From IMG/VR virus record IMGVR_UViG_3300032050_009172: DNA of 20,000 bases, one strand, 5' to 3'. The notes below the pieces were generated by a model. The model saw nothing but the letters and a program-made list of their open reading frames with translations, was not told the DNA's origin and made no database searches. Positions within the stretch are counted from its first letter, which is position 1; every line of letters starts with the position of its first letter. Of this stretch, positions 1 through 5,508 are shown in pieces. The stretch comes from an uncultured virus (IMG/VR IMGVR_UViG_3300032050_009172). Its lineage: Duplodnaviria; Heunggongvirae; Uroviricota; Caudoviricetes. The translations under genes and the position numbers were made by a program.

Positions 1-1043
1 ATCAGCTGGCTTGTTCGAGACACAAACTGTTCTCGTTGAGCAGGTGAGTGCTGTATTGTTTCTAGCATACTACATGTATCAGTCATTAACTGTTTTTGTG
101 TTTTGGTAAGTTTTGCAACTGTTAGTTGTTTTTGTATAACTGCAATCAACTGCTGACGTTCGAGAGTGGTAAGCACTTCTGACTGTAGCCAAACAGGATA
201 AGATAAAGGGATCACATTAAATGGCAGTCGACGGACATTGGCGTATTCAAACAGTTCAATGATATTTTGCAAATTTAAAAATTGCAACACTGCCGACAAA
301 TGTATCTTTGCTCCGGGCAATGCCTGTTGTAGTGCAACAATGTTTGATTGCACAACTGACCATTGTGCCGGATAGCGTAAAAATTCAAATGTTGGCCCAG
401 TACCGTCTACACTAACCATCACATCAAGGTCAGATATTTTTTGTAACCGCTCAAGATGTTTTTTGGTTAGTTGAGTGGCATTGGTAATAATTCGTGTTTT
501 AAGATTTTTTTCAATAACCGCATCGAGCAATTCAATATTGTGTTTGGTTACAAAAAATTCGCCGCCAATAAAACCTATTGATTTAAGGTCTGGCAACTGT
601 TTAATAACTTCAAGTGCATGATCTTCGTGATTGATCACTATTGATTGTTTAATCCATCCAAGTTTGGCATATTCCTGACCTGATTTGGTACTATGAGAAG
701 GATTGCACGACAAGCAACTGAGATTACATGCGTTGCCAGGGAAAATTTCCAAGTCAACAATTTTAGTTTTGGTTTCATGCTCAAACACTTTAATATACTT
801 GTTTCGGATACTAGGCAAGTTATTATCTTCGTCTACTTTGCATGCCTTGCATCCATCTGGCAATGATTCTTTTGTAAGCAAATGTTGCTGAAGAGACGCT
901 AGTTCAGATGATTGCAAATAATCATTAATCGTTGCGTACTGCTTGATAGGTTTGTAATTGCAACAAGGCCTAACAGTTGGATTGAGATCTTTATCAGTAT
1001 ACATATGAATACTAACAAATGGTTTTGGACAATATTTGTTCAT
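1..1043 (-). CDS. Radical SAM protein with N-terminal twitch/SPASM-like Fe-S domain (3' end runs off window; absent from ORF track)
   Basis: Manual translation from ATG 1043: MNKYCPKPFVSIH...VRPCC...GCKAC...DLEIFPGNACNLSCLSCNPSHST...GFIGGEFF...IITNAT; CxxxCxxC and GGE motifs; no in-frame stop seen near position 1. Confidence 0.9.
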   Translation of the reverse strand, partial: MNKYCPKPFVSIHMYTDKDLNPTVRPCCNYKPIKQYATINDYLQSSELASLQQHLLTKESLPDGCKACKVDEDNNLPSIRNKYIKVFEHETKTKIVDLEIFPGNACNLSCLSCNPSHSTKSGQEYAKLGWIKQSIVINHEDHALEVIKQLPDLKSIGFIGGEFFVTKHNIELLDAVIEKNLKTRIITNATQLTKKHLERLQKISDLDVMVSVDGTGPTFEFLRYPAQWSVVQSNIVALQQALPGAKIHLSAVLQFLNLQNIIELFEYANVRRLPFNVIPLSYPVWLQSEVLTTLERQQLIAVIQKQLTVAKLTKTQKQLMTDTCSMLETIQHSPAQREQFVSRTSQL

Positions 1044-1347: not shown

Positions 1348-1439
1348 GCCCCTATAGTTTAATGGTAAAACGGCGGATTTATATCCCGTAAGCAACAGAT
1401 AATTGGTTCATCTGGGTTCGACTCCCGGTGGGGGTACCA
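1348..1439 (+). tRNA. tRNA with TAT anticodon (nominally Ile) and long variable arm
   Basis: GCCCCTA/TGGGGGT acceptor; GCGGA-TTTATAT-CCCGT; ~22-nt variable region; TTCGACT T-loop; A73, CCA. Confidence 0.85.
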
Positions 1440-1821: not shown

Positions 1822-2040
1822 ATGGACATGGATCAAGCGGCTGTATTCTTAGCTGGTAGTATTTTGACAGCAATAGGATTTGTAGTGATTGTGGCGGCGG
1901 CTGTTGCTGTCAACAACATCATAAGTCGTTACTGGAAGCCTGTAAAAATTTTCACAGCAGACAGTTGGAATCTGGGCCACGGCACAAGATTTGCTGAACC
2001 CCATGAACTTGACAAAAGTCAAGAACCCAAAGTAAAATAA
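1822..2040 (+). CDS. Small predicted membrane protein
   Basis: AAGGA RBS; hydrophobic N-terminal helix; fills the gap between two tRNAs exactly. Confidence 0.75.
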   Translation: MDMDQAAVFLAGSILTAIGFVVIVAAAVAVNNIISRYWKPVKIFTADSWNLGHGTRFAEPHELDKSQEPKVK

Positions 2041-2129: not shown

Positions 2130-2205
2130 GTAGGTGTGTGCCGAATGGCTAGGCGCCGGATTGCAAATCCGTATAATGCAGGTTCGAGTCCTGTCACCTA
2201 CTCCA
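2130..2205 (+). tRNA. tRNA-Cys(GCA)
   Basis: GTAGGTG/CACCTAC, CCGGA-TTGCAAA-TCCGT, U73, CCA. Confidence 0.92.
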
Positions 2206-2208
2206 AGT

Positions 2209-2392
2209 TTAGAAAAGATGTGTGAAAAACTCATTGACTATGGGCCCAACTGCTAGGGACCTTAACGTTATCCAGGTGCCGCTGGGATTAAGTTCCAGAC
2301 TGCTAGTCACAGTCGAACCATGTGCCAGGAAGGATGTGAGCTACCCGAAAGGATGTTCAGTACCTTTAAACGCAAAGCAGTATCTTTTTTAA
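2209..2392 (+). ncRNA. Putative ~185-nt structured ncRNA between tRNA-Cys and tRNA-Ser
   Basis: Closing helix 2209-2219/2382-2392, several nested hairpins, GAAA tetraloop, TGACTA/TAGTCA loop-loop complementarity; no credible ORF. Confidence 0.65.
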
Positions 2393-2399
2393 TTTTTTA

Positions 2400-2490
2400 G
2401 GAAGTGTGGCAGAGTTGGTTGATTGCAGCAGTCTTGAAAACTGCCGGCTCCGAAAGGGGTCCGTGAGTTCGAATCTCACCACTTCCACCA
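2400..2490 (+). tRNA. tRNA-Ser(TGA)
   Basis: GGAAGTG/CACTTCC, GCAGT-CTTGAAA-ACTGC, long variable arm with GAAA loop, CCA. Confidence 0.95.
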
Positions 2491-2651: not shown

Positions 2652-2652
2652 G

Positions 2653-2856
2653 TTAGATTTTAGGTGTAAGATGTTTGATGCGTTGATTCACCACATGCTC
2701 GACTGAATTGTCGTTGTAGGCCATAGCAGCCAGCAAGCCTGTTAGATATCCGCGCTCGTAGGCCAACTGTTGTTGTTTGGTCACAAACGTTTTGCCCAAT
2801 GTTTCCATTGCAAGCAAACGCTCTATTTTTTTGATGGAGTCTTGTTTGGTTTGCAT
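2653..2856 (-). CDS. Hypothetical protein, 67 aa (MQTKQDSIKKIERLL...)
   Basis: C-terminal part of ORF 2653..3114; fits between tRNA-Phe and tRNA-Leu; TAAATA 4 nt upstream of ATG. Confidence 0.7.
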   Translation of the reverse strand: MQTKQDSIKKIERLLAMETLGKTFVTKQQQLAYERGYLTGLLAAMAYNDNSVEHVVNQRIKHLTPKI

Positions 2857-2867
2857 GATGTATTTAA

Positions 2868-2982: not shown

Positions 2983-3756
2983 ATGGCTACAATTACTCAA
3001 ATAGAACAGTACTGGGATCAACAACCTTGTAATATAAAGCATGGGTTGGCACCAGAAGGCACAGAAGAATTTTGGAACAACATCAATCGTCGTAGATGGT
3101 TTGTTGGGCCGCATTTGTGGCAGTTGGCCGACTTTGAAAACTGCAAGGGACGGCGGGTGCTAGAACTAGGATGCGGCATTGGATCTGATGCTGAACAATT
3201 TGTACGGCATGGTGCTGAATACGTTGGGATTGATCTTAGCAGTCGTAGCATAGAACTTTGTGAGCAGAGATTTACTGTTATGGGATTAGATGCTGAATTC
3301 TATCACATGGACGCAGGCGACAGTCAGCGTGTTGCAGGGCTAGGACAATTTGATATGGTGTATGCTTGTGGTGTATTGCATCACTATCCCAATGTAGAAC
3401 AAGTGGTCAGCAATGCTTACGCAAGTCTAGCATCTGATGGGGAGTTTCGTTTCCTAGTGTATGCTCGCAACAGTTGGAAATGGGCAATGATTCAGTCTGG
3501 GCTGGACCAGTTTGAAGCGCAAGACAACTGCCCATATGCCAGAGTTTACAGTCAAGGAGAAATACAAAAACTGCTGGACGTACACTTTGATATCAAAAGC
3601 ATCAAGCAAGATTACTGTTTTATGTACAATGTAGAGCAGTACAAACAAGGAAATTATGTGTTGGAACCATGGTTTGCTGCCATGAGCGATGCACAACGCC
3701 AGGCTGTCAATCAACAGCTAGGTTGGCATTTAAGCGTGATTGCCGCAAAGCAATAA
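2983..3756 (+). CDS. Class I SAM-dependent methyltransferase
   Basis: VLELGCGIG motif I, GIDLS, FDMVYACGVLHH. Confidence 0.9.
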   Translation: MATITQIEQYWDQQPCNIKHGLAPEGTEEFWNNINRRRWFVGPHLWQLADFENCKGRRVLELGCGIGSDAEQFVRHGAEYVGIDLSSRSIELCEQRFTVMGLDAEFYHMDAGDSQRVAGLGQFDMVYACGVLHHYPNVEQVVSNAYASLASDGEFRFLVYARNSWKWAMIQSGLDQFEAQDNCPYARVYSQGEIQKLLDVHFDIKSIKQDYCFMYNVEQYKQGNYVLEPWFAAMSDAQRQAVNQQLGWHLSVIAAKQ

Positions 3757-4105: not shown

Positions 4106-4140
4106 AAAAACAGTAGGCCAGTCCTACTGTTTTTTTTTTT
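4106..4140 (+). terminator. Intrinsic terminator, possibly bidirectional
   Basis: AAAAACAGTAGG-CCAGT-CCTACTG followed by T11. Confidence 0.85.
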
Positions 4141-4223: not shown

Positions 4224-4252
4224 CTATCAATAAATATTTTTGAAAGTTGAAA

Positions 4253-4723
4253 ATGAAAAAGCTCGATATAGCATCAGTAGCAGAATTTATCCAGAAACAA
4301 ACGCCCGAAACTCGCATCTACCTTGGCTGCGACTCTGAACGAATCAAAATTGACGGTACCTGGTATGCCGACTATGTGTTGGCCATTGTGGTACACATCA
4401 ACGGCAACAACGGCTGCAAACTGTTTGGCGAAGTTCAACGCGAGCGTGTGTGGGACGTGAAACCAGGCAAACCTGCCATGCGTTTGATGACCGAAGTGTA
4501 CAAGGTTTCAGAACTGTATTTGAAACTGGCTGACGTACTAGAAGGCCGTCAAGTTGAAGTTCACTTGGACATCAACCCAGACGAACAATACGGTTCAAGT
4601 TGTGTGATCTCGCAAGCTGTGGGCTACATCAAAGGAACATGCAATGTGATTCCGTTTGTGAAGCCAGAAGCATTTGCAGCATCATACGCGGCAGATAGAT
4701 TTAAGAGTTTACGAGCTGCCTAA
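4253..4723 (+). CDS. RNase H-like YkuK (DUF458) family protein
   Basis: IYLGCDS, AIVVH, RLMTEV, EVHLDIN, KPEAFAASYAAD motifs. Confidence 0.85.
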   Translation: MKKLDIASVAEFIQKQTPETRIYLGCDSERIKIDGTWYADYVLAIVVHINGNNGCKLFGEVQRERVWDVKPGKPAMRLMTEVYKVSELYLKLADVLEGRQVEVHLDINPDEQYGSSCVISQAVGYIKGTCNVIPFVKPEAFAASYAADRFKSLRAA

Positions 4724-5070: not shown

Positions 5071-5508
5071 ATGACACAATCTGTAAAAGGTACCCGTACC
5101 GAAGAAAACTTGAAGGCGGCATTTGCCGGAGAATCGCAAGCCAATCGTCGATACTTGTATTTCGCAAACATGGCCGACGTAGCAGGCGACAATGACGTTG
5201 CTGCCTTGTTCCGTTCAACTGCCGAAGGCGAAACTGGACATGCACACGGTCATATGGAATACTTGATCGAAGGTGGTGCTGGAGATCCCGCCACTGGCAT
5301 GAGTGCCAAATCTGTTGAGCAGGCTCTGGAAAGTGCTATTCATGGCGAAACACATGAATACACTGACATGTATCCTGGCATGGCCAAAACTGCCAGAGAC
5401 GAAGGCTTAGACGAGATTGCTGACTGGTTTGAAACACTGGCCAAAGCCGAACGCTCACATGCCAATCGTTTCACCAAAGCCCTGGCTGCTCACAAAGAAG
5501 CACAATAA
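5071..5508 (+). CDS. rbr: Rubrerythrin (short form, no fused rubredoxin domain)
   Basis: [40 protein letters not shown] di-iron motifs; AGGAGG RBS. Confidence 0.95.

What the first reader, a model, noticed from the sequence alone, without database searches (positions are those of the whole stretch)
2209..2392. Unrecognised ~185-nt multi-helix RNA with a kissing loop, embedded in the tRNA array
Seen: the spacer between tRNA-Cys and tRNA-Ser folds almost entirely. Helices: TTAGAAAAGAT(2209)/ATCTTTTTTAA(2382); ACTGCT(2249)/AGCAGT(2376); CTCAT/ATGGG hairpin (2230-2244); GGACCTTAA(2257)/TTAAGTTCC(2288) topped by TCCAG/CTGGG; GACTG-CTAGTCA-CAGTC (2298-2314); GAAC/GTTC enclosing two hairpins, one with a GAAA loop. 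TGACTA (2235-2240) is exactly complementary to loop TAGTCA (2304-2309). It lacks the signatures I know for tmRNA, RNase P RNA, SRP, 6S and hammerhead. Inference: a discrete phage ncRNA excised by processing of the flanking tRNAs, possibly a new ribozyme, decoy or antitoxin class.
Basis: partly seen in the sequence, partly recalled or inferred. Interest (0 to 1): 0.8.

Follow-up and report, generated by a model that had tools for sequence, protein, structure and literature searches.

The report
New structured RNA among phage tRNAs
The 190-base gap between two tRNA genes of this giant lake phage encodes an intricately folded RNA found in no catalogue, which a whole group of roughly 350-kb phages keeps as a single-copy gene, although its job is still unknown.

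Summary
The spacer 2206-2399 is a real, conserved, structured non-coding RNA gene, and it matches no Rfam 15 family.

- **Single sequence:** taken alone it is unconvincing. The MFE is -51.9 kcal/mol and z is -1.52.
- **Family:** I collected 42 distinct homologues from metagenome and viral contigs, with median pairwise identity 0.61.
- **Structure support:** these members support nine helices. 93.9% of cells are paired, against 36-52% in slid controls. 30 of 48 pairs show compensatory double changes, and 0 of 500 shuffles reach the observed values.
four are confirmed, namely the closing stem, ACTGCT/AGCAGT, the CTCAT/ATGGG hairpin and the GACTG...CAGTC hairpin. Two are not conserved. The 4-nt core of the "kissing loop" (UGAC/GUCA) is invariant in 42 of 42, so covariation cannot test it.
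- **Coding:** the 56-codon ORF over the spacer stays open in only 8 of 42 members, and variation shows no codon periodicity.
- **Distribution:** the RNA is single-copy in six long phage records. It lies in the tRNA orientation between at least eight different tRNA pairs, and between protein genes in three loci. It was found only in phage-like contigs.
- **Most likely role (inferred):** a stable RNA cut out of the tRNA precursor that acts in trans through 33 invariant unpaired bases. Its partner is unknown.
- **Closest analogues, not homologues:** T4 rnaC/rnaD and GOLLD/ROOL.

The parts
2009..2038 (+). Promoter-like site (TTGACA-18-TAAAAT) ahead of tRNA-Pro. It is the probable start of the transcript that carries Pro, Cys, the RNA, Ser, Val and Phe.
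   Evidence: 11 of 12 consensus matches. The number of such sites in the region is not above chance (8 found, 7.5 expected), so this is a lead only.
2130..2205 (+). tRNA-Cys (GCA) with encoded CCA, the upstream neighbour.
   Evidence: ARAGORN; Rfam tRNA 54.4 bits.
2209..2219 (+). P1 5' strand of the closing stem; pairs with 2382-2392.
   Evidence: helix 1: 10 of 11 pairs change on both sides, and at least six unrelated P1 sequences all stay complementary. One search suggests one further outer pair, 2207 with 2394.
2220..2229 (+). J1/2, GUGUG then AAAAA; the last three A's are invariant.
   Evidence: Invariant columns listed.
2230..2244 (+). P2 hairpin: CUCAU / AUGGG with a 5-nt loop UGACN (2235-2239). 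UGAC is invariant.
   Evidence: helix 2: 99.5% paired, with A-U changed to U-A or G-C in 3 members. The loop is invariant in 42 of 42.
2245..2248 (+). J2/3, CCCA, invariant. Together with the preceding GGG it forms the invariant GGGCCCAACU block.
   Evidence: invariant columns.
2249..2254 (+). P3 5' strand; pairs with 2376-2381, directly abutting the P1 3' strand.
   Evidence: helix 4: 99.2% paired. G-C becomes A-U in 12 members, and the innermost pair takes three Watson-Crick types.
2255..2270 (+). J3/4: AGGGAC (GGGA invariant) followed by 9-12 variable bases.
2271..2276 (+). P4 5' strand (UCCAG); pairs with CAGGA 2326-2330. The window copy has one A.A mismatch here.
   Evidence: helix 5: 94.6% paired. 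U-A becomes A-U in 6 members, and a second pair changes on both sides in the L059-type members.
2277..2297 (+). Conserved GCCKCUG (2278-2284), then a lineage-specific segment. In most members a GNRA-type capped hairpin (P6) lies here.
   Evidence: helix 6: 86.2% paired, 3 pairs covary; absent from the window type.
2298..2314 (+). P7 hairpin: a 5-bp stem and a 7-nt loop NUAGUCA (2303-2309). AGUCA is invariant, and GUCA is complementary to UGAC in the P2 loop.
   Evidence: helix 7: 100% paired and 5 of 5 pairs covary. Helix 3 (loop-loop) never varies.
2315..2325 (+). J7/4 with the invariant AUG (2320-2322).
   Evidence: The short reading frame starting at this AUG is broken in many members.
2326..2330 (+). 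P4 3' strand.
   Evidence: helix 5.
2331..2365 (+). P5 (AGG 2331-2333 / CCU 2363-2365), then P5a (2337-2340 / 2356-2359) and a variable tip that carries the GAAA loop in the window.
   Evidence: In helix 8 one pair is A-U in 20 members and G-C in 22. In helix 9, 4 of 4 pairs covary.
2366..2375 (+). J5/3: UUAAAC (five of its six bases invariant) plus 4-6 variable bases.
2376..2392 (+). P3 3' strand (2376-2381) followed directly by the P1 3' strand (2382-2392).
   Evidence: helices 4 and 1.
2393..2399 (+). 7-nt U-rich tail before the next tRNA.
   Evidence: The gap from P1 to the next tRNA is 6-19 nt in 22 of 42 members.
2400..2490 (+). tRNA-Ser (UGA), the downstream neighbour.

Best explanation
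The spacer is a single-copy gene for a roughly 185-nt structured non-coding RNA of a family not held in Rfam 15. A group of roughly 350-kb jumbo phages carries it inside their tRNA islands.

**Fold (shown by covariation).**
- A closing stem P1 stacks on P3, with hairpin P2 branching off.
- P3 opens into a junction with P4 and P5.
- P4 opens into a further junction with a variable hairpin P6 and hairpin P7.
- 33 of the 50 invariant bases are unpaired. They lie in the junctions and in two mutually complementary loops, UGAC and GUCA.

**How it works (inferred).**
- It is transcribed on the + strand together with the tRNAs.
- It is freed by the nucleases that mature the neighbouring tRNAs: RNase P at the 5' end of the next tRNA, and an endonuclease or trimming at the 3' end of the previous one.
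- The closing stem protects it, so it persists as a stable small RNA.
- It then acts in trans through its invariant unpaired bases on a partner not yet known. That partner is most plausibly a protein or RNA of the tRNA/translation machinery.
For: **Homologues.** Full-length copies occur in 22 of 23 metagenome loci and in 21 and then 27 viral stretches, giving 42 distinct sequences.

**Structure.**
- 93.9% of cells are paired, against 36-52% when the partners are slid.
- 30 of 48 pairs change on both sides.
- 0 of 500 shuffles reach any of the five measures.
- RNAalifold, run independently, gives 22 of 33 pairs with compensation.
- The top mutual-information pairs are the model pairs.

**Strand.** There are 154 G-U cells against 29 A-C cells, and the tRNAs lie on the same strand.

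**Not coding.**
- The window's frame is open in 8 of 42 members, and variability by codon position is 0.219, 0.230 and 0.248.
- No protein relatives turn up beyond one near-identical cluster.
- There is no Pfam or PHROG match.

**Selection.**
- 50 columns are invariant, 33 of them unpaired, at a median RNA identity of 0.61.
- A neighbouring protein is only 69% identical between two member lineages.

**A gene, not a repeat.** There is one copy in each of six long records.

**Position.**
- A same-strand tRNA lies within 14 nt upstream in 26 of 42 members.
- One lies within 71 nt downstream in 31 of 42.
- At least eight different tRNA pairs flank the element.

**Weak hint of transcription.** Contigs from two RNA libraries cover 2181-2333.
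Against: - **No end mapping.** Only assembled contigs of RNA libraries were available. They show neither ends nor strand, may contain DNA, and run on from tRNA-Cys into the element.
- **Other contexts.** In 3 of 42 members the element lies between protein genes (radical SAM or methyltransferase genes). tRNA processing therefore cannot be its universal release route.
- **Dispensable in some relatives.** Two RNA-library contigs from close relatives join tRNA-Cys almost directly to a tRNA-Ser, without the element (tables 5, 5c and 8).
- **Unknowns.** No partner is known. The window sequence alone folds no better than shuffles.
Confidence: 0.55

Rival explanations
1. A cis-acting processing ribozyme. 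The RNA would cut itself out of the tRNA precursor, or trim the neighbouring tRNA's trailer or leader, as theta (HDV-like) ribozymes do next to gut-phage tRNAs.
For: - The element is wedged tightly between tRNAs. P1 starts 3-9 nt after the upstream tRNA in 26 of 42 members.
- It has many invariant unpaired bases, as catalytic cores do.
- Ribozymes beside phage tRNAs have a precedent in PMC10879173, of which I saw only the listing and abstract.
Against: - No self-cleaving ribozyme family in Rfam matches it.
- All supported helices are nested under a 5'-3' closing stem, which is unlike the HDV fold.
- Distances to the flanking tRNAs vary: 6-19, 38-44 and 65-66 nt downstream, and 284-1140 nt upstream in some members.
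- The flanking bases are not conserved.
- At about 185 nt it is far larger than known small self-cleavers.
Confidence: 0.12
2. A cis-regulatory leader or intercistronic element. It would be riboswitch-like or a message-stabilising structure that controls or protects whatever lies downstream, whether tRNAs or SAM-dependent enzyme genes.
For: - In L045, L056 and L038 it lies 25-45 nt upstream of, and in the same direction as, radical SAM, B12-binding radical SAM and methyltransferase ORFs.
- L038 has a promoter-like site with an extended -10 ending about 12 nt before P1.
- Its invariant junction bases resemble an aptamer core.
- The host phages carry many radical SAM genes. 13 of 14 element-bearing records have them, up to 14 matches in one, against 1 of 9 element-free tRNA-array records.
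Against: - 31 of 42 members are followed by a tRNA, not an ORF.
- No terminator-like hairpin follows the element, and no conserved expression platform or ribosome-site pairing is seen.
- The radical SAM association is confounded by common descent, because all long records look like one phage group.
- The promoter-like site in L038 is within chance expectation.
Confidence: 0.12
3. A self-assembling architectural RNA. The invariant complementary loops UGAC and GUCA would pair between molecules, building dimers or larger assemblies as in the phage RNAs ROOL and GOLLD.
For: - Both loops are invariant in 42 of 42 members and are exactly complementary over 4 nt.
- ROOL and GOLLD are phage RNAs near tRNA islands that form cages (10.1101/2024.12.08.627333, passages read).
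- An earlier scan note on another tRNA-array RNA also suspected a dimerising loop (e1-5842295; unchecked).
Against: - Four base pairs make a weak contact.
- The same loops could just as well pair within one molecule, or bind something else.
- There is no covariation to test either reading.
- The RNA is three to four times smaller than ROOL or GOLLD and matches neither Rfam model.
Confidence: 0.1
4. A small protein gene: the 56-codon ORF 2222-2392, or the 26-codon frame that starts at the invariant ATG at 2320.
For: - An ORF spans almost the whole spacer.
- Gene callers predicted a 50-aa product on four contigs.
- The short frame from ATG 2320 reads through in about 24 of 42 members.
Against: - The long frame is open in only 8 of 42 members, and the downstream peptides are unrelated because of frameshifts.
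- Variation shows no third-position excess.
- The short frame has a stop within 11 codons in 11 of 42 members and reads a different frame in 7 more.
- No protein family matches.
- Base-pair compensation explains the substitutions.
Confidence: 0.01

Closest known systems
Bacteriophage T4 stable RNAs rnaC (species 1, 139 nt) and rnaD (species 2, 119 nt)
   Same: Both are small, structured, non-tRNA RNAs encoded inside a phage tRNA gene cluster in the tRNA orientation. They directly abut a tRNA, as in the annotation of NC_000866. Their function is unknown, and release with the tRNAs is presumed (this last point is recalled).
   Different: There is no homology. My covariance model scores 133-205 bits on members and at most 3.6 bits within rnaC or rnaD. 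This RNA is also longer, has nine helices and 50 invariant positions, and occurs in a different phage group.
GOLLD and ROOL (large ornate phage and prophage RNAs, Rfam families)
   Same: They are phage-borne, often lie near tRNA islands, have elaborate conserved folds and no known function. Quaternary contacts are part of their biology.
   Different: They are roughly 3-4 times larger, GOLLD often above 800 nt. The Rfam library, which I recall holds both models, has no match in the element at E up to 10. Self-assembly of this RNA is untested.
Theta ribozymes (minimal HDV-like ribozymes next to gut-phage tRNAs; PMC10879173, listing and abstract seen)
   Same: They are structured RNAs placed directly beside phage tRNA genes, with a proposed role in tRNA maturation.
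   Different: This RNA has a fully nested fold closed by its own 5' and 3' ends, not a nested double pseudoknot. It is about three times larger (size recalled), has no Rfam ribozyme match, and sits at a variable distance from the tRNAs.
Other uncatalogued RNA families in phage tRNA arrays noted earlier in this scan (e1-5842295, e1-5898449, e1-5898182, e1-6109295)
   Same: They share the same genomic niche, conserved folds and unknown function, and often stop a few bases before the next tRNA (AI notes).
   Different: A sequence look-up found no look-alike of this element among earlier windows, so this is a separate family.

Membership tests
tRNA / tmRNA | Cloverleaf or tRNA-like domain detectable by ARAGORN or Rfam RF00005 and the tmRNA models | tested here: not met
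   ARAGORN finds 17 tRNAs in the window and none in 2206-2399. Rfam has no tRNA-clan hit in the spacer at E up to 10.
Any Rfam 15 family (4227 models, including RNase P, SRP, 6S, riboswitches and self-cleaving ribozymes) | Covariance-model match at or near the gathering score | tested here: not met
   - The window was searched at gathering thresholds and at E up to 10.
- Eight diverse members were searched.
- The element alone (206 nt) and L040 alone were searched with the laxest filters.
- The only hits were two chance miRNA matches at about 12 bits.
T4 rnaC / rnaD | Sequence and structure homology to the T4 RNAs | tested here: not met
   Model R1 was run with filters off over NC_000866 69000-75000. 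The best score anywhere is 12.3 bits, and the best inside rnaC or rnaD is 3.6 bits or less. Members score at least 133 bits.
T4 rnaC / rnaD | Stable RNA co-transcribed with tRNAs and released by their processing | not testable with these tools
   Only assembled RNA-library contigs were available. No read ends or abundances could be obtained.
HDV-like / theta ribozymes | Nested double-pseudoknot fold with the cleavage site at the ribozyme's 5' end directly after the tRNA | tested here: not met
   The helices supported by covariation are all nested under a 5'-3' closing stem, and there is no Rfam HDV-type hit. Self-cleavage itself was not tested.
GOLLD / ROOL | Match to the Rfam models; size of 500-800 nt or more | tested here: not met
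   There is no Rfam hit in the element. The element is 154-184 nt from stem to stem.
Cobalamin riboswitch (considered because of a recalled likeness in the order of three short core motifs, a loop-loop contact, and one member lying upstream of a B12-binding radical SAM gene) | Match to the Rfam cobalamin models; a four-way junction core; an expression platform | tested here: not met
   There is no Rfam hit of any kind in the element at E up to 10, even with the element searched alone. I recall that the library holds cobalamin models. No terminator or ribosome-site platform is present. The likeness is recalled, not measured.
Protein-coding small ORF | Reading frame kept among homologues; excess variation at the third codon position | tested here: not met
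   The frame is open in 8 of 42 members, and variability by codon position is 0.219, 0.230 and 0.248. See also for the short frame.

The most novel reading that the evidence does not exclude
The RNA could be an active core rather than a passive by-product. It might be a new natural ribozyme, or a metabolite- or tRNA-sensing RNA of jumbo phages.

Its 33 invariant unpaired bases would then form a catalytic or binding pocket. This would include a loop showing GAC and a loop showing GUC, which are the Asp codon and the Asp anticodon.

It might work together with this phage group's unusually large set of radical SAM and methyltransferase enzymes on tRNA precursors.
Probability: 0.12. Interest if true: 0.9.

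Novelty: new variant of a known kind. Interest (0 to 1): 0.66.

Why it matters
Phage tRNA clusters have been known since T4 to carry stable RNAs that nobody can explain. More recently GOLLD, ROOL and theta ribozymes showed that this niche hides remarkable RNA biology.

This element adds a compact family with strong comparative support:
- It has nine helices and 50 invariant positions.
- It is single-copy in each of the six long records searched, which belong to a group of roughly 350-kb jumbo phages.
- It is small enough for probing, cryo-EM and binding screens.

Its level of conservation in unpaired bases is typical of RNAs that bind a specific partner or catalyse a reaction. It is therefore a concrete handle on what phage tRNA islands do beyond supplying tRNAs.

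If it turns out to be only a processing spacer, it still improves annotation. Gene callers currently predict a spurious 50-aa protein here.

Tried and rejected
**Searches and tests that came back negative**
- **Known RNA family.** Five Rfam searches gave nothing.
- **Cultured phages.** blastn of 2130-2490 against 50,697 GenBank phage records matched only the tRNA-Ser part.
- **Protein gene.** There is no Pfam or PHROG match. One near-identical protein cluster was the only hit among 5.8 billion. The frame is not conserved.
- **Synteny route.** 23 further viral contigs (26 stretches, three of them the window's own phage) share the exact 3' half of tRNA-Cys but lack the element, by blastn and by covariance model. 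Relatives of the neighbouring methyltransferase in viral contigs were only the same phage.
- **T4 rnaC/rnaD homology.** None.
- **Cellular homologue.** A strict motif scan of 185,579 species genomes hit one MAG contig. The model found nothing in 150 other genomes of that MAG's order. That motif scan missed a second copy in the same MAG, so it undercounts.
- **Tertiary covariation.** Mutual information gave no convincing pair beyond the helices and an outward extension of P1 and P6.

**Literature**
- Four searches found no description. They used word terms, theta ribozymes, stable RNAs in tRNA clusters, and the literal motif letters.
- The catalogue of 10,006 viral candidate RNAs (PMC10690425) did not list six of the contig numbers in the supplementary files that could be searched. 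Two large files could not be read, so the motif may still be in that list.

**Weak, failed or unused**
- **RNA-library depth.** Depth over the element is low, and no contig covered 2334-2416. Nothing can be concluded from that.
- **Failed step.** My constrained-folding script did not apply the constraints correctly, and I discarded its numbers. One search replaced it: 34 of the 39 family pairs that the window can form are in its own MFE fold.
- **Promoter reading in L038.** The site exists but is within chance expectation.
- **Not used.** I ran no protein structure or complex predictions, because nothing here called for them.

Full report
**What is at the coordinates.** The window is part of a jumbo phage. 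The nearest held record is 364,404 bp with direct terminal repeats and shares all sampled words with the window. ARAGORN and Rfam find 17 tRNA genes on the + strand. The finding covers the 194-nt gap between tRNA-Cys (2130-2205) and tRNA-Ser (2400-2490).

Even so, the sequence alone gives no significant signal:
- The + strand MFE is -51.9 kcal/mol with z -1.52, and 19 of 200 dinucleotide shuffles fold as well.
- The - strand has z +0.23.
- A 56-codon ORF (2222-2392) spans the spacer.

At this point a plain spacer or a small gene was as likely as an RNA.

**Finding relatives.**
- *Dead ends.* Three viral contigs carry the identical sequence, which gives no variation to work with. GenBank phages match only the tRNA-Ser part. 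A further 23 viral contigs with the same tRNA-Cys 3' half lack the element.
- *The step that worked.* I used the ORF translation as a set of degenerate probes over metagenome contigs. This returned 23 loci. nhmmer with the window spacer then found the element at full length in 22 of them, with E from 7e-56 to 2.5e-10.
- *Extension.* A pattern built from the most conserved block found 21 viral stretches and one MAG contig. A looser pattern found 27 viral stretches.
- *Result.* After removing duplicates there are 42 distinct sequences. Pairwise identity ranges from 0.47 to 0.99 with a median of 0.61.

**It is not a protein gene.**
- The window's frame stays open to about the window's stop in only 8 of 42 members. 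Where it stays open, the peptides differ because of frameshifts.
- Variability by codon position is flat at 0.219, 0.230 and 0.248.
- A shorter frame from the invariant ATG at 2320 has a stop within 11 codons in 11 of 42 members, and reads another frame in 7 more.
- There is no Pfam or PHROG match. The only protein relative is one near-identical 50-aa prediction seen on 4 contigs.

**It is a structured RNA.** I tested nine helices on a MAFFT alignment that knows nothing of structure (A3). The results are:
- 93.9% of 1937 cells form standard pairs, against 36-52% when the 3' partners are slid by 1-3 columns.
- 30 of 48 pairs change on both sides.
- None of 500 shuffles reaches any of the five measures.
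- RNAalifold on the first 36 sequences independently gave 22 of 33 pairs with compensation.
- The highest mutual-information pairs are the model's own pairs.

The closing stem P1 is the clearest case. At least six unrelated sequences fill it in different lineages, and each is complementary to its partner.

The strand is settled too. G-U cells (154) far outnumber A-C cells (29), so the folded strand is the + strand, the same strand as the tRNAs.

**The fold, in window coordinates.**

| Element | Coordinates | Notes |
|---|---|---|
| P1 | 2209-2219 / 2382-2392 | Closing stem |
| P2 | 2230-2244 | Hairpin branching off, loop UGACN |
| P3 | 2249-2254 / 2376-2381 | Follows P1 with no gap on the 3' side |
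| J3/4 | 2255-2270 | Long strand beginning AGGGAC |
| P4 | 2271-2276 / 2326-2330 | |
| P5 | 2331-2333 / 2363-2365 | Abuts P4 directly; carries a variable hairpin |
| J5/3 | 2366-2375 | UUAAAC |
| P6 region | 2285-2297 | Inside P4, after the conserved GCCKCUG at 2278-2284. A variable hairpin in most members; a lineage-specific strand in the window |
| P7 | 2298-2314 | Inside P4; loop NUAGUCA |
| J7/4 | 2315-2325 | Inside P4; invariant AUG |

Fifty columns are invariant, and 33 of them are unpaired in this model. The window's own MFE fold contains 34 of the 39 family pairs that the window can form. Only P4 is missing from it.

- *Correct:* P1, P2, P3 and P7.
- *Not supported:* the pairing GGACCTTAA/TTAAGTTCC with TCCAG/CTGGG on top is possible in the window lineage but is not kept elsewhere. 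It competes with P4, which has two compensated pairs.
- *Not supported:* GAAC/GTTC.
- *Kissing loop:* it reduces to UGAC with GUCA, both invariant in 42 of 42 members. The base that makes a fifth pair in the window is U in only 12 of 42. Covariation can say nothing either way.

**Where it occurs.**
- *Orientation and neighbours.* Every copy lies in the tRNA orientation. A same-strand tRNA lies within 14 nt of the core upstream in 26 of 42 members, and within 71 nt downstream in 31 of 42.
- *Flanking pairs.* These include Cys>Ser, Gly(GCC)>Thr, His>Met, Gly(UCC)>Ser(GCU), Leu>Met, Cys>Met, Ile(UAU)>Met and Pro>Ser. The element therefore behaves as a separate unit that has been placed or kept in different slots.
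- *Protein-gene contexts.* In three loci it lies between protein genes in the same direction. It sits between two radical SAM genes in L045, upstream of a B12-binding radical SAM gene in L056, and upstream of a methyltransferase in L038.
- *Copy number.* My covariance model R1 finds exactly one copy in the 364-kb record and one in each of five further long records. It finds none in the 23 element-free tRNA arrays.
- *One phage group.* The completeness estimates of the 13 other long records all imply genomes of roughly 345-420 kb. 13 of the 14 element-bearing records carry radical SAM genes of one PHROG, up to 14 matches in one record. Only 1 of 9 element-free tRNA-array records does. I read this as a single phage group, not as a functional link.
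- *Not a cellular gene.* The only hit among species genomes is a MAG that has two copies on two contigs. Two of its contigs, C1 (which carries one copy) and C3, show the same radical SAM clusters, so at least C1 is probably a binned phage contig. None of 150 other genomes of its order has the RNA.
- *Loss in relatives.* Two RNA-library contigs from close relatives join tRNA-Cys, plus the first 7-10 bases of the spacer, to the 5' end of a tRNA-Ser. Some relatives have therefore lost the element.
- *Selection.* A neighbouring protein is 69% identical between the window lineage and the L041 lineage. The invariant RNA blocks are therefore under strong selection.

**Expression.** A promoter-like site lies ahead of tRNA-Pro (2009-2038), and no terminator-like site lies between it and tRNA-Phe. 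Contigs from RNA libraries of two studies cover 2183-2333 (151 nt, 2 differences) and 2181-2273 plus 2244-2331. These are assembled contigs, may include DNA, and show no ends. I count them as a weak hint only.

**Comparison with known RNAs.**
- No Rfam 15 family matches, even with the element searched alone.
- The T4 RNAs rnaC and rnaD are the nearest analogue by context but are not homologous.
- GOLLD and ROOL share the niche and the mystery, but not size or sequence.
- Theta ribozymes share the neighbourhood but not the fold.
- A recalled likeness to the cobalamin riboswitch core did not survive the Rfam test.
- Earlier notes of this scan describe other uncatalogued RNA families in phage tRNA arrays. 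None resembles this one by sequence.
- I found no publication describing it. One large catalogue of viral candidate RNAs could be checked only in part.

**How it most likely works.**
- *Shown:* a conserved fold on the tRNA strand, single copy, strong selection on unpaired bases, and tight packing between tRNAs.
- *Inferred:* co-transcription with the tRNAs; release when RNase P cuts the next tRNA's 5' end and the previous tRNA's 3' end is matured; protection by P1; and action in trans through the invariant junctions and loops.

I give this reading 0.55. The cis-acting ribozyme and cis-regulatory readings get 0.12 each, self-assembly 0.10, and a protein gene 0.01. That it is a conserved structured RNA at all I hold at about 0.95.

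**Limits.**
- All members may belong to one phage group, so many covarying cells descend from few events.
- The pattern-based collection is biased toward copies that keep the conserved block. One copy found later by the model had escaped it.
- No experiment or read-level RNA data were available.

Noticed in passing
window 1822-2040 (+): A 72-codon ORF with an ATG start and a hydrophobic stretch sits inside the tRNA array, between tRNA-Gly and tRNA-Pro. It has only a weak PHROG hit. Contigs from two RNA libraries cover it with 16 differences each.
   Followed up: partly
window 1348-1439 (+); also L035 9-100, L041 364-455, L043 640-731: A tRNA-Ile with anticodon UAU is called at 92 nt, which is class-II length and odd for an Ile tRNA. 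It recurs in related arrays. The long arm or insert was not examined.
   Followed up: no
G001 (whole phage record) and G002, G003, G012: This phage group carries many radical SAM genes of PHROG 14086: 7 matches in the 364-kb record and 14 in a 332-kb relative. Only 1 of 9 other tRNA-array phage contigs has any. One copy is at window 3-1043 (-).
   Followed up: partly
L042 1484-1571 and 2257-2446: One relative has a truncated 5' copy of the RNA (first ~88 nt; 63 bits) right after tRNA-Gly. A 186-codon ORF with no family match follows on the other strand, and then the full copy. This looks like a gene inserted into, or recombined at, the element.
   Followed up: partly
L078 / L109 (G024 contig C1) and L108 (G024 contig C90): A bacterial MAG labelled Haliscomenobacter holds two different copies of the RNA on two contigs. 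Two of its contigs, C1 (which carries one copy) and C3, hold phage-like radical SAM clusters. This probably means binned jumbo-phage contigs, and is at best a weak host hint.
   Followed up: partly
L046 1246-1647, L048 1973-2492, L010, L016: Several of these phage tRNA arrays end in a tmRNA gene of the permuted, betaproteobacterial type.
   Followed up: no
window 2983-3756, 4247-4723, 5071-5508 (+): A class I methyltransferase, an RNase H-like DUF458 protein and a rubrerythrin are interleaved with the tRNA genes. The DUF458 and methyltransferase genes recur next to the arrays of relatives.
   Followed up: partly
window 2652-2867, 1180-1268 and 4106-4134: Two other long tRNA spacers were not examined for conserved RNAs. 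A strong terminator-like hairpin (12 pairs plus a T run) lies just before tRNA-Leu(CAA).
   Followed up: no
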